The position numbers and the translations under genes were made by a program. A stretch of DNA of 12,923 nucleotides, taken from IMG/VR virus record IMGVR_UViG_3300029079_000072, positions 1 to 12,923 of that record, one strand, 5' to 3'. The notes under the pieces were generated by a model that ran no database searches, was not told where the DNA came from, and worked only from the letters and a program-made list of their open reading frames with translations. Shown here in pieces: positions 1 to 9,061 of the stretch. The stretch comes from a virus (taxonomy: Duplodnaviria; Heunggongvirae; Uroviricota; Caudoviricetes). Position 1 is the first letter of the stretch; the number at the start of each line of letters is the position of its first letter.

Positions 1-267
1 TTACTCTGCAGGTGAAGTCGGCCACTCAATATCAGGTGCAGTTGATGTATCAACACGATTCAACAATACCCGATATTTATTCCATGCCTCCAGCAACGAT
101 CTTTCTTCCGCCGTTGCGATTTCCAGATCTACAGCATCCTGCAGTGGCGCAATATACTCACTGAATTCCTGGATGTGGAACTGTGTGGTGACGGTCTTCC
201 AGTCATTCGGCTCCTGCTGTATCGAAGCATACCAGGCTATTTCAATATCGCTATGCTGCGGCAGCAT
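1..267 (-). CDS. Short tail fiber assembly-like protein (88 aa, Tfa C-terminal domain only)
   Basis: The C-terminal ~50 aa ([46 protein letters not shown]) is near-identical to the C-terminus of the Tfa at 1047..1631 and to lambda Tfa as I recall it. ATG at 265..267 is preceded by AAGGGG; stop TAA at 1..3. Resembles the short tfaX-type gene of DLP12-like prophages (from memory). Confidence 0.7.
20..163. repeat. Direct repeat copy A (tfa 3' region), about 144 bp, paired with 1069..1212
   Basis: Aligned by eye against 1069..1212: about 16 mismatches in 144 positions, same orientation. Similarity ends abruptly at 163/1212. Confidence 0.75.
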
Positions 268-1046: not shown

Positions 1047-1631
1047 TTACTCCCTGACAGGGTTCGTAGGCCACTCAATATCAGGTGCAGTTGATGTATC
1101 AACACGGTTCAGCAACACCCGATACTTCTTCCAGGCTTCCAGCAATGAGGTTTCTTCCTCCGTTGCAATTTCCAGATCTGCAGCATCCTGAAGCGGCGCA
1201 ATATGCTCACTGGCTACCTGCATCAGGTTGTTTTTTGTTTCTTCCGCCTCCCGGATCCGGAACAGTTTTTCTGCTTCCGTATCCTTCACCCAGGCTGTGC
1301 CGTTCCACTTCTGAAACTCCCCTTCCGGCGATAACCAGGTAACATTTTCCGGTAACGGACCGAGTTCAGAAATAAATAACGCGTCGCCGGAAGCCACGTC
1401 ATAAACCGTTTTACCCCGATGATCTTCAACGAGATGCCACGATGACTCATCACTGTTGAAAACAGCCACGAAGCCAGCCGGAATATCTGGCGGTGCAATA
1501 TCGGTACTGTTTGCTGGCAGACCTGTATGAGGCGGAATATATGCATCACCTTCACCAATAAATTCATTAGTTCCGGACAACAGATTATAAATTTTTATGG
1601 TCCGTGGTTGTTCACTCATTCTGAATGCCAT
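1047..1631 (-). CDS. tfa: Tail fiber assembly protein Tfa (lambda-type, 194 aa)
   Basis: Translation [18 protein letters not shown]...[46 protein letters not shown] matches lambda Tfa almost residue for residue from memory. The ATG overlaps the stf stop (TAATG). Confidence 0.9.
1069..1212. repeat. Direct repeat copy B (tfa 3' region), paired with 20..163
   Basis: See copy A; same orientation, roughly 89% identical by eye. Confidence 0.75.
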
Positions 1632-4600
1632 TATGCAAGCCTCACAATATAGTTAAATGCGATGTTTTTGACGGTGTTTTCCGCGTTACCAGCAGCGTTA
1701 ACGGTGATGGTGTGTCCATGTGAACCAATCGCAACGGAGTGCGTATGAGCACCAATACCGACAGTATGTGCATGTGCACCAGCATTTGCTGCAGTACCAG
1801 ACAGCGAGTGGGTATGAGCACCTGCTGACTGTGTCTGAATACGTTGATAATACGATCTACTGGAAGAAGTCTCCGGGCTTACTTGATACTGTGAATCCTT
1901 GACATAAGTGAACCCACCGCCATCATAAAATGCTAACGCAGAACCGCCGCCTCCCGGCCAACGAATACCATTACCATGAGTATGAGCACCGGCAGACCCC
2001 GTAGAGCCACTCAGACTGTGCGTATGCGACCCGGTGTTATTCGTGGATTTAGTGCCGTAATCAAACGACGATGTGGTTTTCGTCCCCAAATCCGTACTGG
2101 ATGCGCTGGCGCTGTGGGTGTGCGATTTTATGCCGTCCCGTTCCTGAGACAATACGGCCCGGCCACTGGCGGGTTTGCCCTTGATTGTCCAGCCGCGCAT
2201 ATCTGGAATAACACCTGAAGGATAGGCAATAGCCAGTTTCGGATATGCTGCCTTATCAAACGTCTGCCCCTGCATGATTGCATAACCTGCAGGTGGTGTA
2301 TCTGATGGCCACGGCAGCGGAACACCTGGCGGAAACGCTTCAATATTTGCCGAGCCGTCAAATTTTACGCCGTTAATTGTCCTTGCAGTTTGCAATTTGG
2401 TTGCTGTGCTTGCATTACCCGATAAAGATCCAGTGATACCACCACTCGCGTTTAATTTAGTTGCAATTGTAACATTGCCAGTATGGTTACTAATTATAAA
2501 CGGCCTTAAGCTATTGTGCGTACCAAGACTGTTACCCGAATCTGTCAACATAAAATATGTGTTTGATCCATCATTTCGGATAAAGAATCCATAGTTGCCA
2601 TAGGCAATACGCAGACCATTTGCTGACCTTGAAATAACCTCACCAGCAGCAGTTAAACCACCTGAAAGAGTCCCTCCAGTTAATGCCAATGCCCCAATAT
2701 TTGAAGGGGTCAATGTGATATTTGCACTACCATCAAATGACACACCGTTAATCGTTCTGGCTGCCTGAAGTTTCGTGGCGGTCGCAGCATTACCTGTAGT
2801 GTTTTGATTACCGGTAGCGTTGACTCCAGGCAAGTTGATATCTGCCGATCCATCAAATGCCACGCCCCCAATCTTACGTGCTGTCTTGATCTTGGTCGCA
2901 GTATCTGCGTTTCCGGTCAAATTACCAGTAACACTACCACCAACTTTTAGTCCATTACCGATGGACACCAACCCTGATCTTAAGTTTATAGAGAATGGTC
3001 TTAATGAACCGATGTCTCCATTTTCCCCCTCCCCTTCATTAGTCGGAATAAGATGAAGATAATCTTCGGAACGCCTAAAAATAAGGCCAAAGGCTTGGTT
3101 GAATATTCGAAGAGCATTTATCGTGCTGATTTTTAACTGCCCTCCCATTGTGTCGCCAGTTTTTTGAACTGAACTATCTTTAACAGTTTTAACTGCCTTT
3201 GGCGTTGCCGCCAGCTTTTCACTGGTGCTGTTTGTTGCACTGCTGAGCTGTACTATCCCCTTTTTCGTCGTGCTCGCATCCTCAAGCCCCACGGCGGATG
3301 CAATATCCTCTGCCCGTTTTGCCGCTGTTTCGGCACGCGTTGCCGCGGATTCAGCAGCAACTTTGCTCTGAGATGCCGCCGTCGCACTGCCTGCCGCCTC
3401 TGATGCTTTCGTTGTTGCTGTCGTGGCACTACCTTTCGCTGCTGACGCTTGTCTGGTCGCCTCATCTTTTGAAGCAGACGCAGATGATGCCGATGACGCC
3501 GCTGAACTGGCTGACGATGCGGCTGCCGCCTTAGAGGAAGCAGCATTGTCTGCTGAAGTCTTTGCATTTGTTTCAGAGGTTTTTGCTGCAGAAGCAGACC
3601 TCGCTGCTGCAGTGGCTTGCTCAGTGGCTTTGCCAGCCTTCGTTGTGGCTGTTGAAGCGGATGATGCGGCGCTTTCTGCCGATTTTCCGGCGGCGGTGGC
3701 ACTGGCTGAGGCCTGCCCGGCACTTGTTGACGCGGCACTGGCAGATAATGCAGCCGCTGTTTTTGAACCTGCCGCAGCTGAGGCGCTCTGTCCCGCTGCT
3801 GTTTCAGAAGACTTAGCGTTCGTCTCGGACGTTTTTGCCGCCTTCGCGGAATTTCCTGCCGCCGTTGCCGAGGAAGCTGCACTACTGGCACTTGATGATG
3901 CATTCGTTTCTGAAGATTTCGCTGCCTCTTTTGAGGCCGCCGCACCCCGTGCCGAGGTGGCAGCTTCTGACGCTTTCGTGGTCGCTGTGGATGCAGAAGT
4001 GGCTGCCGATTTTTGTGATGCTGCGGCATTCGTTTCTGACGTTTTCGCGGCACTGGCGCTGGTAGCTGCCGCGCTTTTTGATGACTCTGCAGCAGCAGCA
4101 CTTTTTGCTGCTTCACGGGCCTTTGTCGATGCCGTTCCTGCGCTGGAAGACGCTGACTGAGCCGACGACGCGGCCTGTCCGGCTGACGTGCTGGCGGCAC
4201 GTGCTGAGGCTGCAGCATCGGTTGCATGAGTTGCCGCCTCGCTGGCTGATGCACTGGCATCGCTGGCTGATTTTTTCGCGGCTGCCGTATTCTGTGCAAC
4301 CGCGGAGGCGTTACGTGACACCTCTTCCACCATCTGCTCAAAGCGGCGCAGTGCCTCCGGCATGACATCATCTTCCGTCATGGCACCGAGAAAATCATTC
4401 AGCGTACCTGGTCTGGAACCTTCATAGACGGTAATGGTCCCGGCATGTGAAGGCGGAAAACCTTCAACCAGCAGGGTGACGCTGTACTGGCCATGCTCAA
4501 CATCCATGCTGTAACGTCCGGCTTCATCCGGATTTTCAGAGGCCACCGTGTTCACCACCACCGTGCTGCTGGTTCGTCTGGCCTTCAGCACAATGGTGCA

Positions 4601-4657
4601 GTTCTGTACTGGTTTTCCTGTGCCATCTTTAAGCACGCCAGAAATTTTTACTGTCAT
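1631..4657 (-). CDS. stf: Side tail fiber protein Stf (1008 aa)
   Basis: N-terminus [28 protein letters not shown] and C-terminus ...[42 protein letters not shown] match lambdoid Stf proteins such as Rac StfR as recalled. A long Ala/Ser/Thr-rich low-complexity stretch is followed by repeated tail-fibre repeat units ([23 protein letters not shown]) and a His-rich HxH C-terminal region. Confidence 0.9.
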
Positions 4658-4671
4658 ACTTTTCCACCAAT

Positions 4672-4705
4672 AAAAAAAGCCCGCAGCAGTGACGCCACGG
4701 GCTTC
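4672..4705 (-). terminator. Putative intrinsic terminator (minus strand) between lom and stf
   Basis: Minus-strand sequence has a GC-rich hairpin (AGCCCG...CGGGCT) followed by TTTTTTTATTGG. It lies about 15 nt upstream of the stf ribosome-binding site. Confidence 0.5.
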
Positions 4706-4808
4706 AGGACAGTGTAACTTTACGTTTCCTCAAACGCAGTTCACCCCATAAGGTGGATGAACCTGCGTATCATAACAATATTTACAGAAGATAAATCGGC
4801 GTCTGTTG

Positions 4809-5408
4809 TCAGAAACGGTATCCGATACCAACAATAAATGCATCCGTTCGCCAGTCGCCACTACCGGAACCTTCATAAGCAAGGTCAATGGTTACGGATT
4901 CGGTCGGGTTAAACTGCACGCCAGCCCCCCACGCCAGAGACGTGTTGCTGTGGCGACCGTCATCACTTCCGGTCAGCACATCGTGCGTTTTCCCCTTGTT
5001 GTCAGTTACGCGGAGATAATCCCCGGAGAAAGTCGACACACGGCTGTAAGCCACACCCACCATCGCATACGCGCTGAACCATTCATTCACGCGTACAGAC
5101 GGCCCCGCCATCACGCTGAACCAGCGGTTACGCACGGAATCTTCATGCCAGCGGGTATCGCTGTAGTGCGTTTTTTGCTCATCCTCAGCATTGGCATAAC
5201 TGAAGGACGTAATCAGCCCCAGCGCGTCCGTAAACTCATAACGGTATTTCACGTTAATCCCGTTCAGATTATCGCTGCCGGGAGCGTTCGTACGGGCATG
5301 AAGATACCCCGCGCTCAGTGTGGACTGATGTTCAGACGCCCATGCAGGCGCACCGGATACGGACAGACAGATGGCTGCGGACAAAATGGCTGCACAAACT
5401 TTACGCAT
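4809..5408 (-). CDS. lom: Lom outer-membrane protein (Ail/Lom family, 199 aa)
   Basis: Translation MRKVCAAILSAAICLSVSGAPAWASEHQSTLSAGYLHA...FIVGIGYRF is nearly identical to lambda Lom as recalled. Signal peptide is present; ATG at 5406..5408 is preceded by GAGAGG. Confidence 0.9.
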   Translation of the reverse strand: MRKVCAAILSAAICLSVSGAPAWASEHQSTLSAGYLHARTNAPGSDNLNGINVKYRYEFTDALGLITSFSYANAEDEQKTHYSDTRWHEDSVRNRWFSVMAGPSVRVNEWFSAYAMVGVAYSRVSTFSGDYLRVTDNKGKTHDVLTGSDDGRHSNTSLAWGAGVQFNPTESVTIDLAYEGSGSGDWRTDAFIVGIGYRF

Positions 5409-5475: not shown

Positions 5476-7857
5476 TCAGCTAATCGTGATGCCTGCAGTG
5501 GCTTTCTTCATCACAACAACCAGCAAATCGCTGATACTTGCTGTGGGATACCAGCCATTTACCCACCATGCTGATACAGAAAACTCCAGCGTCATGTGGC
5601 CGCGACCAGCAGGCATATCAATAACACCACTGTAAACCAGCGTATTATCCAGCGCGGTACGGTTATAAATTTCAGCACCGTTTTTCCGTACTATCAGGCG
5701 GCATGACGAATAAATATCGTTATTCTCCCGCTCATGTCTGGCACCGCTGAATGCCACCGCCGGAATAACAATTTGCCGGTCAAACGGCTGATCGTCATAA
5801 ACCCTGACGGTAATGGTCCCTGATGGCCACCTCTCCGGTGCACGGGAGTCACGGGGGAAAGCCTTACCCACTGTTTTAACGAGATCGCCTTCAATCTGGT
5901 TTGCAGACAGTTTCCCTCTGATGACACAGTTCTCGTTAATGGTGACATTATTGAGCGTGCCGGTATTCGCCGTGATGGCTCCACTGATATCCGCATTGCG
6001 GGCTGTCAGCCTGCCATCCGGCGTCAGGGAAAACGTAGGAGGATTGCCGGATGACGTGATGCTCACCGCAAACAGTCGCTTCAGGAACACGTCGTTCATG
6101 AACAGCTGATTCCCCTGCGCCACAAACAGCGGCGTGGTGTTGCCATTCTCCGGGGTAATCATCGCGATACGGTCCGCCTGCAGCAGAATACTGCTCAGCG
6201 TCTGACCATCAACATCCTCAATCCCCGCACCAATCCCGGCCACATAGGGAATACCGTTTTTTGTTTTCTGCACCTTCAGCATATACATGGCATTCAGCTC
6301 ATTGCGCGTGTCTGACTGAACCCGCTGGATTTGCTGTATGGTCACGGCCTGGTCACCCAGTTTTTTATCCGTGGTCGAGGTAATTTCACTCCCTTTTTTA
6401 TCCACGTACTGGCGGACCTGTGCTATCTGTCGGGCATTTTCTGACTGCCCCTGGCTGACAGTCTGTGAGATTTCACTGCTCACCCGGTCCACTTTCTGGC
6501 TCACCTGCGCGATGGCCAGTGTCTGGTCCTCATTCTTTTTCGCAACCAGCTGCGTGAGGCTGTTTTCCGCCTCCCCGATTTTCCGGGTCACTTCTGCGAT
6601 ATCCGTGTCCATCCGCTGACGGATGTCTTCTTCCAGTTGCGTGACCTCCGTACGCAGCGCTGAAGCATCAATGCGCTCTTTCAGTGCCTGGCCCAGAAGC
6701 GTCTCATCTATCAGCCCCCGGAAAATTTCCAGATACCCTTCACCATCATTGCTGGGCTGCCCGCTGGCTTCCACAAAAGCAGATTTTCCCACCAGGTTGA
6801 CGCTTCGCACGTAAAACCAGAAATCCGTCCCCGGCTTAATCCGGCTCCCCTGGACAGTCCACTGACTGCCGGTCCCCAGATAACGGGCAGATTTTTCCAC
6901 CTGTGCCGTGTTCGTGATGCGTTTTTCTGAGAACCAGAATTCAAACTGTACCGTCGGGTCATACACCGCAAGACGCGGGACCGCCGTTATCTGAAAATAC
7001 CCCGGCGTCAGCTCAATGGTGGCGGGTTTTGCAGGCGCGTTAATCCGGAAGGTGGTGGTCGCAGGTTCGCCCTGCTGGCCGTAGCTGTTAATGGCCCGCA
7101 CCGTCAGGGTGTATTCCCCCAGTGGCAGGCCGCTGAAACGGTGCTCCGTGTCTGCGGTGATGGCGGTGGTCACCAGTCTGGCATCCGTTCCCTTACCACT
7201 GGTCAGGCGCAGACTGAAGCGCACGCCCTTCACCACCCGCGGCGTGTCCCATTTAGCCTGCGCCAGATACTGGCCGTCAGCTGCGCTCACCTCCACCGTC
7301 AGGTGCTGCACTGCCGGTGGGATAACGCTGTTCAGGGTGCCTGACTGCGGCTCAAAGCGGGCCCCGTTATCCACGATGGCTTCTTTTTCAGGTACGTGCT
7401 GCACCGCCGTGATGGCAAAGGTGCCGTCCGTGTTTTCCCGGATGGAGACACAGCGGAACAGGCGACGACGCAGTGACGGCAGGGAGAGTCCCCACACACC
7501 GTATGTCTCCACACCATCCGGCAGGGTGCTGACCTGTATCCGGTCAGGCGCGGGGTGTGCGGTGATGGCCACGCTCGCCGGCTTACCGCTGCCGTTAATC
7601 AGATTAACAGTGGCCGTGCCGGTCTCCGGCAGTGTCACCTCCCGGTCCAGCGTCAGGGTACGGCTGGCGGCATCGATGGACAGGACACGTCCGCCGGTCA
7701 TGGTCCCGGCATAGTCGTTATCACAGATTTCAATGATGTCACCGGGTGTGTGACGCAGCCCCTGTGACCCGAGCGTGAAATCCACCGTCTGCGTTTCCAG
7801 CAGTTCGGTCTTTATCACCCACAGCCCGGCACGGTGGGCCTGACCGCGGCTGGTACA
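5476..7857 (-). pseudogene. J: Tail tip / host specificity protein J, N-terminally truncated remnant (C-terminal ~790 codons)
   Basis: Translation from the in-frame stretch [27 protein letters not shown]...[11 protein letters not shown]... parallels the lambda J region starting around [25 protein letters not shown] (from memory). The frame is closed by TGA at 7858..7860 exactly where J homology should continue upstream. There is no ATG start; the track's start is a GTG that is an internal Val codon. Confidence 0.85.
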
Positions 7858-7924
7858 TCAGGGGCTGTAATGCTGTTGTGACAGCACTCATCATATTATT
7901 CAGTTGTTGCTCTGATATATTCAT
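7856..7924 (-). pseudogene. Terminase large subunit (gpA-like) 5' fragment, about 23 codons
   Basis: ATG at 7922..7924 overlaps the 3' end of the Nu1 gene and encodes MNISEQQLNNMM..., resembling the lambda gpA start MNISNSQVNRL. The frame then runs out of frame into J sequence, so only the first ~20-25 codons look native. Confidence 0.5.
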
Positions 7925-8405
7925 CGAGTAAATCCGGTAATTTATCCCCCGCCCGCGCACACTGATTTGCCCCCTTCGCAATAAGGGTTTTCAGATGGTC
8001 AAGATGGCGCGGTGTTAAATCAGGAAACTGTCGCTGCATGGATAAAGGGATGGAATCAAGCGTACTGGATAACGCCATTGCCAGCTTGCTGAGGGCAAAA
8101 ATACAGAACCCGGTATCAATAAGTTTTCCTTTTGACACCTCATTTTTTAACTGCTGTGTAACAGCCTGTTCTGCTGTCAGTTCCCATCTGGCAATAAGCA
8201 ATTTCTCCTCATAGTCGTCTTCGCTATCGCCATCAGGCACATCGTTTTTACTTCTTCTCAGATACGATATGTAAAAATCGCGCCAGGCATCCAGATCCAG
8301 TTGCCCTCGCTTATTCGATATCGGGGCACCCGGCAATTTCTGCAATCTGCGAAGCTGGCGATCGGTCAGACTTAAATGCCTGGCAACTTCAGTCTGCGTA
8401 GCCAC
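7896..8405 (-). CDS. nu1: Terminase small subunit (Nu1-like, 169 aa)
   Basis: The C-terminal half (...GFCIFALSKLAMALSSTLDSIPLSMQRQFPDLTPRHLDHLKTLIAKGAN...LPDLLDEYI) parallels lambda Nu1 (...AFCTFVLSRIAGEIASILDGLPLSVQRRFPELENRHVDFLKRDII...LLSEYI) from memory. It lies directly beside the cos site. Start is GTG at 8403..8405 preceded by AGGTGAGGA, with an in-frame stop just upstream. Confidence 0.85.
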   Translation of the reverse strand: MATQTEVARHLSLTDRQLRRLQKLPGAPISNKRGQLDLDAWRDFYISYLRRSKNDVPDGDSEDDYEEKLLIARWELTAEQAVTQQLKNEVSKGKLIDTGFCIFALSKLAMALSSTLDSIPLSMQRQFPDLTPRHLDHLKTLIAKGANQCARAGDKLPDLLDEYIRATTE

Positions 8406-8442
8406 TCCTCACCTCGCAAAAACTCTCACTTCACAATCACAA

Positions 8443-8640
8443 CAAAACCGGTCATGTCCGGCTTACATGTCTATTTTTTGTGCATGTCCGGTTCACAGAA
8501 GACCTCTTTTTTTATTTTTCATATAGTTAACTTGAAGAGAAACCGGACATGGTTCCCGGAAAATTTTCATAAATAGCGAAAACCCGCGAGGTCGCCGCCC
8601 CGTAACCTGTTGGATCGACGGAAAGGACCCGAAAACGAGA
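8443..8640. other. cos site (cosQ-cosN-cosB) of a lambda-type phage
   Basis: The reverse complement of 8561..8602 reads GGGGCGGCGACCTCGCGGGTTTTCGCTATTTATGAAAATTTT, matching the lambda left end, and the adjacent sequence GGGTCCTTTCCG...ACAGGTTACG resembles the lambda right-end/cosQ region (from memory). Between cosN and Nu1 are three copies of the 9-mer CATGTCCGG (8453..8461, 8483..8491, and inverted at 8543..8551) separated by an AT-rich tract, consistent with R1/R2/R3 TerS-binding sites flanking a bend site. Confidence 0.8.
8589..8600 (-). other. cosN cohesive-end sequence (12 nt, GGGCGGCGACCT on the minus strand)
   Basis: Exact match to the lambda 12-nt 5' cohesive end as recalled; plus strand reads AGGTCGCCGCCC. 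Confidence 0.8.
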
Positions 8641-8748
8641 ATAATTATCACTTACAGCAAGAATCGAATCTGATCTATTATGGTGCTTGCTATTATGTGC
8701 CGGCACAAGTGCGTCGTTTACCGTCATTTCACACAGAGGCATCATCAA

Positions 8749-9000
8749 ATGAAAATCAGAAATATTCTCGCTATCTCCCTTGCAACATCATCCTTCAGTT
8801 GCCTGGCATTTAAATCCTCGCCCAATGTGCTACCAGGACCAACGAATCAACTAACTGCGGTAGAAAGTAAAATTATCGGACATTTTTATGCCCCACACAG
8901 TGCATTACCCGGAACAACCATCACAGGGACATGTGACGCCTCCCCCGTCCCGGGATGCACCTGTCCGTTTTGTACTATGCTGCGTAGCCAAAACCGATAA
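8749..9000 (+). CDS. Small secreted protein (83 aa) with signal peptide and C-terminal Cys motif; function unknown
   Basis: ATG at 8749 is preceded by AGAGG at a 9-nt spacing. The N-terminus MKIRNILAISLATSSFSCLA is signal-peptide-like and the C-terminus carries C-x8-C-x-C-x2-C (CDASPVPGCTCPFC). It is transcribed opposite to the late operon, like lambda bor. Confidence 0.5.
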   Translation: MKIRNILAISLATSSFSCLAFKSSPNVLPGPTNQLTAVESKIIGHFYAPHSALPGTTITGTCDASPVPGCTCPFCTMLRSQNR

Positions 9001-9061
9001 CATCCGCATTTACCTGGTATTACATGATGAGTTCACGCAGCGACTGATAGAGGAAGGAAAG

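What the first reader, a model, noticed from the sequence alone, without database searches (positions are those of the whole stretch)
8406..8640. Apparently intact cos site and TerS retained in a prophage that has lost terminase large subunit, head and most tail genes
The 12-nt cohesive end and flanking cosQ/cosB-like sequence look intact, and three CATGTCCGG repeats lie in an R3-bend-R2-R1-like arrangement. Nu1 next to it appears full length. An element keeping cos and TerS without its own TerL or capsid could in principle be packaged by a co-resident lambda-like helper whose terminase recognises this cos, i.e. satellite-like mobilisation or cosmid-like transduction of adjacent DNA. It may equally be chance preservation.
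Basis: partly seen in the sequence, partly recalled or inferred. Interest (0 to 1): 0.55.

Follow-up and report, generated by a model that had tools for sequence, protein, structure and literature searches.

The report
Leftover cos site after recent deletion
The DNA-packaging start site and small terminase gene of a lambda-like prophage are intact here, but only because a 16.5-kb deletion seen in a single E. coli strain removed the neighbouring head and tail genes very recently, so this is an ordinary broken prophage and not a new kind of hitch-hiking element.

Summary
On the minus strand the window carries a complete lambda-type cos: cosQ at 8630..8624, cosN GGGCGGCGACCT at 8600..8589, the I2 spacer, and three CATGTCCGG R cores at 8551..8543, 8491..8483 and 8461..8453. 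A full-length 169-aa TerS follows at 8405..7896. TerL is cut after codon 23 and joined out of frame to J at 7857.

The window is E. coli DP051, from a 28.7-kb prophage between potB and potC. Strain FCI48 has the undeleted prophage at the same site. The flanks show no substitution over 11.3 kb, the deletion is 16,513 bp with 1 nt of microhomology, and the junction occurs in 1 of 5,426 complete genomes. Preservation therefore reflects recency, not selection.

The cos/TerS type equals that of O157 Sakai prophage Sp14, with an identical TerS protein and the same R cores. Packaging in trans of the terminase-defective Sp4 was already reported for this cos class. K-12 DLP12 and Qin show the same layout, with cos and the Nu1 homologue kept and TerL lost.

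DP051 has no matching TerL. Its only other lambda-type cos is 412 kb away and convergent. At 28.7 kb the element misses the 38-52 kb packaging window as a monomer and as a dimer. Verdict: real but ordinary.

The parts
8624..8630 (-). cosQ (GGGTCCT), the packaging-termination subsite, at bp -30..-24 relative to cosN
   Evidence: Read directly. It is identical in lambda, phage 21, DLP12, Qin and PhiR12_1. Phage 21's annotated 'R4' box covers the same bases.
8589..8600 (-). cosN, the 12-nt cohesive-end sequence GGGCGGCGACCT
   Evidence: It is identical to lambda bp 1-12.
8557..8571 (-). I2 segment (TATGAAAATTTTCCG) inside the cosN-cosB spacer; the whole of bp 13-45 is identical to lambda
   Evidence: It aligns with the annotated I2 of phage 21. 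I2 is needed for packaging termination according to PMC4669245.
8536..8551 (-). R3 (CATGTCCGGTTTCTCT; core CATGTCCGG at 8551..8543), at bp 50-65, the position of lambda and phage 21 R3
   Evidence: The core and offset are the same in PhiR12_1 and Sakai Sp14. The R3 position in lambda is taken from PMC9026076.
8515..8529 (-). I1-like IHF site (TAACTATATGAAAAA) in a 51-bp, 75% A+T spacer between R3 and R2
   Evidence: It has two mismatches to WATCAANNNNTTR, at the same offset and strand as I1 of lambda (two mismatches) and phage 21 (one mismatch). The motif alone does not exceed chance in the window.
8483..8491 (+). R2 core (CATGTCCGG on the plus strand, so inverted relative to R3), at bp 110-118
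   Evidence: Conserved in PhiR12_1 and Sp14.
8448..8461 (+). R1: exact core CATGTCCGG at 8453-8461 (inverted like R2), within the quasi-palindrome CCGGTCATGTCCGG, which also gives CATGACCGG (8/9) in the R3 orientation at 8456..8448
7896..8405 (-). terS (Nu1-type small terminase subunit, 169 aa, GTG start, WP_000235436.1), full length
   Evidence: Pfam Phage_Nu1 matches at E=1e-18 and PHROG 57 matches over the full length at E=1.7e-55. The protein is identical to TerS of intact prophages, Sakai Sp14 and PhiR12_1.
7856..7924 (-). terL remnant: the first 23 codons only
   Evidence: RefSeq annotates it as a partial CDS. Alignment to the intact terL of strains 7/2 and FCI48 confirms this.
7857..7857 (.). 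Deletion junction (terL codon 23 joined to J codon ~438, out of frame), with 1 nt (T) of microhomology; 16,513 bp are missing relative to strain FCI48
   Evidence: The junction is found in 1 of 5,426 genomes.
5476..7857 (-). J (tail tip) C-terminal fragment, ~793 codons, with no start codon of its own
   Evidence: Pfam Ig_J, Phage_Tail_Tip and Ig_GpJ_C domains match. RefSeq marks it as a pseudogene.
1047..5408 (-). Retained right arm of the prophage: lom (4809-5408), side tail fibre (1631-4657) and tail fibre assembly (1047-1631). An initiation at this cos would package this DNA first.
   Evidence: The region is 100% identical to strain FCI48.

Best explanation
This is the packaging-initiation module of a lambda-like prophage: cosQ, cosN, I2 and cosB (R3, I1, R2, R1), followed by terS. 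The prophage has the Sp14/PhiR12 packaging specificity and sits between potB and potC in E. coli DP051. A single, very recent, illegitimate deletion of 16.5 kb removed everything from terL codon 24 to J residue ~437, and its left end happened to fall 39 nt past the terS stop codon. cos and TerS are intact because there has been no time for decay, not because they are maintained.

The following is inferred, not shown. The site should still be a competent substrate. TerS dimers would bind R3 and R2 across an IHF bend at I1 and position a TerL supplied in trans to nick cosN. Packaging would then run towards terS, J', lom, stf, tfa, potB, potA and pepT.

In DP051 this cannot produce useful particles. 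No TerL of the lambda family appears to be present. There is no second cos in the same orientation within reach to terminate packaging. The excised element (28.7 kb) is too small as a monomer and too large as a dimer for a 38-52 kb head. Its realistic roles are as a passive substrate or recombination partner for incoming relatives, as documented for DLP12 and for the Sakai prophages.
For: Identity and context. The window is 100% DP051. The prophage is bounded by potB and by int, xis and potC, and spans about 28.7 kb.

The parent form exists. Strain FCI48 has the same prophage next to potB with terS, terL, all head and tail genes and full-length J. Window 7857-1 matches it with 0 mismatches in 7,857 nt. 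Window 11343-7857 matches with 0 mismatches and one 1-nt gap in 3,487 nt. The missing block is 16,513 bp, with 1 nt of microhomology.

Uniqueness. The junction is covered in 1 of 5,426 genomes, whereas cos+terS+terL of this class is contiguous in 1,263 genomes.

The cos subsites and TerS are identical or equivalent to those of presumably functional relatives.

No helper in DP051. The cos/terS-5' sequence occurs at only two places in the genome. The second is a Qin-like remnant with lambda-type cosB, nohA and only a 183-nt terL fragment.

Constraints from the literature.
- Initiation needs matching cosB/TerS specificity, while termination needs only a downstream cosQ-cosN-I2 (PMC4669245).
- The lambda head holds 38-52 kb, and smaller cos DNAs are packaged only as multimers that fit this range (PMC9764419).
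Against: No experiment shows that this cos is cleaved.

The absence of a TerL in DP051 is inferred from the absence of further lambda-type cos cores at megablast sensitivity. It does not rest on a whole-genome protein search.

Some phages of this specificity are larger than lambda (PhiR12_1 is 54.4 kb), so a 57.4-kb dimer might be borderline packageable in their heads.

The layout 'cos and TerS kept, TerL lost' recurs in DLP12, in Qin and in DP051's own Qin-like remnant. A purely random-endpoint model does not obviously predict this.
Confidence: 0.85

Rival explanations
1. Satellite-like or cosmid-like mobilisation. The truncated prophage would be a functional hitch-hiker. A lambda-like helper of Sp14/PhiR12 specificity, or a helper TerL recruited by the resident TerS, would cut this cos and package the excised element or the adjacent chromosome at a biologically meaningful rate.
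For: - All cos subsites and TerS are intact.
- int, xis, Q and the lysis genes are still annotated.
- There is a precedent in the same cos class: Sakai Sp4, with a disrupted nu1, was found in DNase-resistant particles, attributed to Sp14 terminase (PMC2669165). Sp14 TerS and R cores are identical to those of the window.
- The Feiss laboratory uses helper packaging of passive prophages as a routine assay (PMC4669245).
- A TerL of the matching family is present in 1,903 of 5,426 E. coli genomes, so helpers are common in the species.
Against: - The junction is unique to one genome and the flanks are undiverged, so there is no sign of persistence or spread as an element.
- DP051 has no helper.
- Any helper that reads this cosB brings an identical TerS, so the resident TerS adds nothing.
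- At 28.7 kb the monomer is below 38 kb and the dimer, at 57.4 kb, is above 52 kb.
- Initiation in situ has no same-orientation cos downstream. The only other cos is 412 kb away and convergent.
- The element has no capsid-size or packaging-redirection genes and none of the PICI hallmarks.
Confidence: 0.07
2. Assembly or culture artefact. The prophage is really intact in DP051, and the 16.5-kb gap comes from misassembly or from a deletion variant that took over the sequenced culture.
For: The junction is seen in a single assembly only. The flanks are otherwise identical to an intact prophage.
Against: The two breakpoints share only 1 nt, so no repeat exists that could collapse an assembly. The record is a closed circular chromosome. 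A clean illegitimate deletion is a common real event in prophages.
Confidence: 0.04
3. Selected retention. cos and TerS, with or without a short TerL N-terminal stub, are kept in defective lambdoid prophages because they benefit the host or the element. The benefit could be interference with the terminase of superinfecting phages, or a role as a hot recombination and rescue module.
For: The same architecture occurs in K-12 DLP12 (nohD, then the 309-nt pseudogene aaaD that overlaps the nohD 3' end where terL would start, then tfaD) and in K-12 Qin (nohA directly followed by stfQ). It also occurs in DP051's Qin-like remnant (nohA, a 183-nt terL stub, then the capsid gene) and in this window (a 69-nt stub). 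In the window and the Qin-like remnant RefSeq annotates the stub as a terminase fragment; that aaaD is also a terL fragment is my reading, not an annotation. DLP12 nu1 and cos are functional when recombined into lambda, and cos breaks stimulate recombination (PMC3945230).
Against: There is ascertainment bias, because I looked only at loci that still have cos/terS. DP051's DLP12 remnant has lost both. In a spread sample of 30 of 4,703 records for this terS class, none was truncated just after terS. This particular deletion is too recent to have been shaped by selection.
Confidence: 0.04

Closest known systems
E. coli O157:H7 Sakai prophages Sp14 and Sp4 (Asadulghani et al. 2009, PMC2669165)
   Same: The cos/TerS class is the same. 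The Sp14 TerS protein (ECs_2736) is 100% identical to the window's TerS. The R3, R2 and R1 cores CATGTCCGG lie at the same offsets (+49, +109, +139), and cosQ and cosN are identical. Sp4 is a terminase-defective prophage with this cos. Its DNA was nevertheless found packaged, and the authors attribute this to Sp14 terminase.
   Different: Sp4 lost TerS function through an IS insertion and keeps terL and much of the head and tail region. Here TerS is intact and terL through J is deleted. Sakai carries co-resident helpers and DP051 does not.
E. coli K-12 cryptic prophages DLP12 (cos-nohD) and Qin (cos-nohA)
   Same: Each is a defective lambdoid prophage with intact cosQ, cosN and cosB and a Nu1-homologue gene. 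Next comes at most a short remnant at the terL position, joined directly to tail-fibre genes. DLP12 nu1 and cos work when recombined into lambda (PMC3945230).
   Different: DLP12 and Qin have lambda-type cosB and Nu1, whereas the window has the CATGTCCGG R sites and a TerS whose N-terminal ~60 residues do not align with lambda or phage 21 at BLAST level. DLP12 and Qin are old remnants with further decay. This deletion is unique to one strain, with undiverged flanks.
cos of phages lambda and 21 (complex cosB: R3-I1-R2-R1)
   Same: cosN and bp 13-45 are identical to lambda, and the cosQ side is identical to phage 21. R3 begins at bp 50. An I1-like site lies at the same offset and orientation, R2 is inverted, and terS starts ~195 bp from cosN.
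   Different: The R-site sequence differs. The core is CATGTCCGG, against CGTGTCGG/CATGTCGG in phage 21 and CGTTTCC in lambda. The core is shifted by ~3 bp relative to phage 21 R3. The R2-R1 spacing is 30 bp, against 43 bp in phage 21. The exact R1 core has the R2 orientation. Lambda and phage 21 terminases discriminate more than 1000-fold on cosB (PMC4669245), so neither is expected to initiate here.
cos-type phage-inducible chromosomal islands of E. coli (PICI with rpp; Fillol-Salom et al., reviewed in PMC9026076)
   Same: Each is a chromosomal element with lambda-like cosQ and cosN, next to a gene for a winged-HTH protein, and lacking TerL and capsid genes. Each depends on a lambda-like helper for packaging.
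   Different: PICI cos has no R repeats. The adjacent gene is rpp, which hijacks the helper TerS, not a bona fide terS. PICIs lack phage lysis and tail genes. The window element has R repeats, a true Nu1-family TerS, Q, holin, lysozyme, Rz, lom, stf and tfa, and is a one-off deletion derivative.

Membership tests
Lambda-like cos site with complex cosB | 12-nt cohesive-end sequence at cosN matching the lambda group | tested here: met
   GGGCGGCGACCT at 8600..8589 is identical to lambda, phage 21, DLP12, Qin and Sp14.
Lambda-like cos site with complex cosB | Conserved 7-bp cosQ upstream of cosN, and the I2 spacer between cosN and cosB | tested here: met
   GGGTCCT lies at 8630..8624 and bp 13-45 are identical to lambda. 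The roles of cosQ and I2 are taken from PMC4669245.
Lambda-like cos site with complex cosB | Three R repeats in the order R3-I1-R2-R1, with R3 at about bp 50-65 and R2 opposite to R3 and R1 | tested here: met
   Three exact CATGTCCGG cores lie at bp 50-58, 110-118 and 140-148, and R2 is inverted relative to R3. One departure: the exact R1 core is also inverted, with only an 8/9 match in the R3 orientation. The defining layout is taken from PMC9026076.
Lambda-like cos site with complex cosB | IHF binding site (I1) between R3 and R2 | tested here: inconclusive
   TAACTATATGAAA has two mismatches to the consensus, at the same offset and strand as I1 in lambda and phage 21, within a 75% A+T spacer. 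A consensus scan of the window is not above chance.
Lambda-like cos site with complex cosB | Cleavage by a cognate terminase to give 12-nt 5' overhangs | not testable with these tools
   This needs virion DNA end mapping or an in vitro cos cleavage assay.
Nu1-type terminase small subunit (TerS) | Sequence membership in the Nu1 family over the oligomerisation and TerL-binding part | tested here: met
   Pfam PF07471 Phage_Nu1 matches residues 49-150 at E=1e-18, above its cutoff. PHROG 57 matches residues 1-169 at E=1.7e-55.
Nu1-type terminase small subunit (TerS) | N-terminal winged helix-turn-helix DNA-binding domain | tested here: inconclusive
   A single-sequence AlphaFold model gives H4-10, H15-22, a loop at 23-36 and H38-54, with pLDDT 74-81. 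This matches the lambda Nu1 layout of recognition helix 17-24 and wing 31-39. Foldseek against the PDB gave no significant hit; the best were MerR-type wHTH proteins at E about 1. phmmer against the PDB found nothing.
Nu1-type terminase small subunit (TerS) | Full length relative to functional homologues | tested here: met
   The 169-aa protein is identical to TerS in intact prophages (strains 7/2 and FCI48), in Sakai Sp14 and in phage PhiR12_1.
Nu1-type terminase small subunit (TerS) | Partner terL immediately downstream | tested here: not met
   Only 23 codons of terL remain. This is a defect of the locus and does not bear on the protein's family.
Phage satellite / cos-type PICI | No phage lysis or structural genes; a compact island with its own regulation and replication module | tested here: not met
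   The 28.7-kb element carries Q, holin, lysozyme, Rz, a J fragment, lom, stf and tfa.
Phage satellite / cos-type PICI | Packaging redirection (rpp next to a cos without R repeats) or capsid-size redirection | tested here: not met
   The gene next to cos is a true Nu1-family terS, and cosB has R repeats. The PICI features are taken from PMC9026076.
Phage satellite / cos-type PICI | Persistence as a distinct element across lineages | tested here: not met
   The junction is present in 1 of 5,426 genomes.
Defective (cryptic) lambdoid prophage retaining cos-terS (DLP12/Qin/Sp4 kind) | Integrated lambdoid prophage with int and att flanks that has lost essential morphogenesis or packaging genes but keeps cos and the Nu1 homologue | tested here: met
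   int and xis lie next to potC, the right arm ends at potB, terL through J is deleted, and cos and terS are intact. The layout matches DLP12 and Qin.

The most novel reading that the evidence does not exclude
cos-terS modules might not be random leftovers. In four separately examined loci the deletion that removed the morphogenesis genes starts within about the first 310 nt of terL and leaves cos and a full TerS. These loci are K-12 DLP12, K-12 Qin, DP051's Qin-like remnant and this window; the two Qin loci share an insertion site and may share history. This could reflect selection for a cos+TerS remnant. Such a remnant might exploit incoming helpers for packaging or for cos-stimulated recombination, or it might interfere with their terminase as a form of defence. 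A lesser point is that the CATGTCCGG cosB with this TerS DNA-binding domain would be a lambda-like packaging specificity not yet characterised genetically alongside lambda, 21 and N15.
Probability: 0.06. Interest if true: 0.55.

Novelty: new member of a known kind. Interest (0 to 1): 0.14.

Why it matters
It matters little on its own. It is one more defective lambdoid prophage, and its cos/TerS module is sequence-identical to modules already present in hundreds of genomes and discussed for O157 Sakai Sp14 and Sp4.

It is useful mainly as a clean natural example. A known parent form (strain FCI48), an exact 16,513-bp deletion and undiverged flanks show how a prophage turns into a DLP12/Qin-like remnant in a single step.

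Such remnants can still supply cos, TerS specificity and tail-fibre genes to incoming phages by recombination or by packaging in trans. The recurrent 'TerS kept, TerL lost' layout may deserve a proper census.

Tried and rejected
- Phage 21 or lambda specificity. I first expected a phage 21-type cosB. The alignment shows that only the cosQ side matches phage 21 and only bp 1-45 match lambda, while cosB is of a different type.
- Co-resident helper. I looked for DP051's second cos-bearing place by comparing place counts and walking candidate sites. The DLP12 remnant has no cos. The first Qin guess missed. The Qin-like remnant has lambda-type cos and nohA but no terL.
- TerS structure. phmmer against the PDB gave nothing relevant. 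Foldseek with a single-sequence model gave no significant hit. Pfam on the N-terminal 64 aa gave only a sub-threshold sigma-70 region 3 HTH hit.
- IHF consensus scan. It is not enriched over shuffles and finds no site with one mismatch or fewer in cosB. Positional conservation is the only support for I1.
- Promoter and terminator scan of 7800-9400. It was uninformative, and its 'terminators' are the R3 and R1 palindromic cores.
- Literature. A search for the motif CATGTCCGG returned only p53 and unrelated papers. I did not find the source paper of the PhiR12 phages. The Listeria TerI preprint is unrelated. PMC4856287 had nothing on length limits.
- Excess of terS-only loci in this class. None was seen in the counts or in a spread sample.
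- Failed calls with no result: 22, 42, 43, 68, 69.

Full report
**What is there**

The cos site lies on the minus strand. Read in the lambda orientation, from window 8700 down to 8380, the sequence contains the following:
- cosQ GGGTCCT at 8630..8624
- cosN GGGCGGCGACCT at 8600..8589
- a spacer identical to lambda bp 13-45, including I2 at 8571..8557
- a cosB region that differs from lambda

The cosQ side is identical to phage 21, and the cosN and I2 part is identical to lambda.

Three exact copies of CATGTCCGG lie at 8543-8551 (minus strand), 8483-8491 and 8453-8461 (plus strand). No other exact copy exists in the window. I expect about 0.1 exact 9-mers in 12.9 kb on both strands (my arithmetic), so the cluster is not chance. 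The tool's shuffle test at one mismatch or fewer is not significant on its own (8 matches against 3.45 expected). [quoted passage not shown]

In lambda, R3 spans bp 50-65. TerS contacts bp 55-63, and the order is R3-I1-R2-R1 with R2 inverted (PMC9026076; PMC4669245). Here R3 sits at the canonical position and R2 is inverted. A 51-bp, 75% A+T spacer between them carries TAACTATATGAAA. This is an IHF-like site at the same offset and strand as I1 of lambda and phage 21. The motif alone does not exceed chance.

One departure from the canonical layout is that the exact R1 core has the R2 orientation. It sits in a quasi-palindrome that also gives an 8/9 match in the R3 orientation.

**TerS**

The ORF at 8405..7896 (169 aa, GTG start) matches Pfam Phage_Nu1 (residues 49-150, E=1e-18). 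It matches PHROG 57 'terminase small subunit' over its whole length (E=1.7e-55). Its protein is identical to the TerS of the following:
- apparently intact prophages in strains 7/2 and FCI48
- phage PhiR12_1
- O157 Sakai prophage Sp14

The N-terminal ~60 residues do not align with lambda Nu1 or phage 21 gp1 at BLAST level. A MAFFT alignment keeps the R-x-[IL]-x-x-[WL]-Q-x-x-G-x-P pattern around the lambda recognition helix. A single-sequence AlphaFold model gives helix, helix, loop, helix with pLDDT 74-81. That arrangement is what a winged HTH would show, but structure searches gave no significant match. I therefore treat the fold of the DNA-binding domain as likely but unproven.

**Where the window comes from and what was lost**

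The window is 100% identical to the chromosome of E. coli DP051, NZ_CP156034.1. The prophage lies between potB on one side and int, xis and potC on the other, and is about 28.7 kb long.

RefSeq annotates a 23-codon terL stub (window 7924..7856). It is followed, out of frame, by a J gene that lacks its N-terminus (7857..5476), then lom, a side tail fibre gene, tfa and a methyltransferase.

Strain FCI48 carries the same prophage at the same site with the full set of genes from terS to J. Two stretches of the window match it:
- Window 7857-1 matches with 0 mismatches in 7,857 nt.
- Window 11343-7857 matches with 0 mismatches and one single-base gap in 3,487 nt.

The block missing from DP051 is 16,513 bp, and the two breakpoints share a single T. 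A 401-nt query across the junction is covered in only 1 of 5,426 complete E. coli genomes. The contiguous cos-terS-terL of this class occurs in 1,263 genomes. The deletion is therefore illegitimate, specific to this strain and very recent.

**Is the cos likely functional, and of what type?**

The cos region and terS are 100% identical to those of intact prophages.

Sakai Sp14 has the same TerS protein and the same three R cores at the same offsets. It shows 22 substitutions in 745 nt, and none falls in cosN, cosQ or the R cores. PhiR12_1 shows the same conservation. This defines a packaging-specificity class distinct from lambda, 21, N15 and phi80. TerS matches to N15, phi80 and the other lambda-family phages listed cover only the C-terminal part of the protein, from about residue 49 to residue 73 onward depending on the phage.

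Lambda and phage 21 terminases, which share cosQ and cosN, discriminate more than 1000-fold on cosB (PMC4669245). Only a helper of the Sp14/PhiR12 class should therefore initiate here. [quoted passage not shown]

**Testing the mobilisation idea**

Four points speak for it.
- The concept is sound and already published.
- The Feiss laboratory packages 'passive prophages' with helpers.
- In O157 Sakai the terminase-defective Sp4 was found in DNase-resistant particles. Its cos is identical to that of Sp14, and the authors attribute the packaging to Sp14 terminase (PMC2669165). One search shows this is the same cos class as the window.
- The TerL family that partners this TerS is present in 1,903 of 5,426 genomes.

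Five points speak against it for this locus.
1. **No helper in DP051.** The cos/terS-5' sequence occurs at only two places in the genome. The second is a Qin-like remnant with lambda-type cosB, nohA and a 183-nt terL stub. The DLP12 remnant of DP051 has no cos.
2. **TerS is redundant.** Any helper able to read this cosB encodes the same TerS.
3. **The size is wrong.** Lambda heads take 38-52 kb, and small cos DNAs are packaged as multimers that fit this range (PMC9764419). A 28.7-kb unit is too short once and too long twice (57.4 kb). It is borderline only for the largest relatives, such as PhiR12_1 at 54.4 kb.
4. **There is no termination site.** Initiation in situ would run from cosN through terS, J', lom, stf and tfa into potB, potA and pepT. 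The only other cosN is 412 kb away and convergent.
5. **No satellite features.** The element keeps Q, lysis and tail-fibre genes, has a true terS and not an rpp, and has R repeats that PICI cos sites lack.

**Comparison with known cases**

K-12 DLP12 and Qin both have intact lambda-type cosQ, cosN and cosB followed by a Nu1 homologue (nohD, nohA). Next comes at most a short remnant at the terL position, and then tail-fibre genes. DLP12 nu1 and cos work when crossed into lambda, and cos breaks stimulate recombination there (PMC3945230).

The window is a new member of this known kind, a defective lambdoid prophage that keeps cos-terS. It is of the Sp14/PhiR12 specificity and was caught immediately after the deletion.

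**What remains open**

The repeated 'TerS kept, TerL lost just inside its 5' end' layout is striking. It occurs in DLP12, in Qin, in DP051's Qin-like remnant and in this window. My sampling was conditioned on the presence of cos/terS, and a spread sample for this class showed no other truncation just after terS. I therefore give selected retention a low probability and list the census that would settle it.

**Verdict**

Interest is low at 0.14.

Noticed in passing
Locus L012 25339-28209 (DP051 record 2,365,339-2,368,209): DP051 carries a second defective lambdoid prophage, Qin-like and next to rspB/ydfJ. It also keeps a lambda-type cos and nohA (TerS homologue) plus a 183-nt terL stub, and then jumps to the major capsid gene, FI, FII and fragments of tail and lom genes. 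One genome thus holds two cos-TerS remnants of different cosB specificity, and neither has a TerL.
   Followed up: partly
Loci L008 6646-7663 (K-12 DLP12) and L009 5799-6557 (K-12 Qin), compared with window 7856-8600: The layout recurs: an intact cos and a full Nu1 homologue are followed by 0-310 nt at the terL position and then late tail genes. The deletion left ends cluster just inside terL in four loci. This may be ascertainment bias, because I searched with cos/terS, or it may be a real bias in how lambdoid prophages decay.
   Followed up: partly
window 8749-9000 (+): An unannotated 83-codon ORF lies on the strand opposite the late operon, just upstream of cos. It has a signal-peptide-like N-terminus (MKIRNILAISLATSSFSCLA) and a Cys-rich C-terminus. 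It gives no Pfam hit. Its position recalls the lambda bor moron.
   Followed up: no
window 8553-8680 (cosQ-cosN-I2 core): This ~100-126-bp core is found at 90% identity or more in about 4,630-4,680 of 5,426 complete E. coli genomes, with a median of two places per genome. A lambda-type cosN is therefore nearly universal in the species, mostly in remnants.
   Followed up: partly
Locus L006 20620-23305, compared with window 7857-8680: The terL family is more widespread (1,903 genomes) than the combination with this terS/cosB (about 1,150-1,260 genomes). Some records match terL but not terS/cosB. This suggests a mosaic boundary at the terS-terL junction, with one TerL lineage paired with several TerS/cosB specificities.
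   Followed up: partly
window 20-163 and 1069-1212: An 88.9%-identical 144-bp direct duplication of the tfa 3' end flanks a class I SAM-dependent methyltransferase gene on the opposite strand (324-992). It looks like a moron inserted between a tfa gene and a tfa fragment at the prophage right end.
   Followed up: no
window 9364-9744 (-): A TonB C-terminal-domain protein gene lies between the Rz-like lysis gene and cos in the late operon. RefSeq annotates it as a 327-nt 'TonB family protein'. It is a cargo gene conserved in the intact relatives.
   Followed up: no
Locus L001 6943-7192 (DP051 prophage, outside the window): The prophage carries a tRNA-Ile, tRNA-Arg, tRNA-Arg cluster downstream of Q. 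The same three tRNA genes lie downstream of Q in Sakai Sp14 (locus L014). No toxin gene is annotated next to them in either prophage.
   Followed up: no
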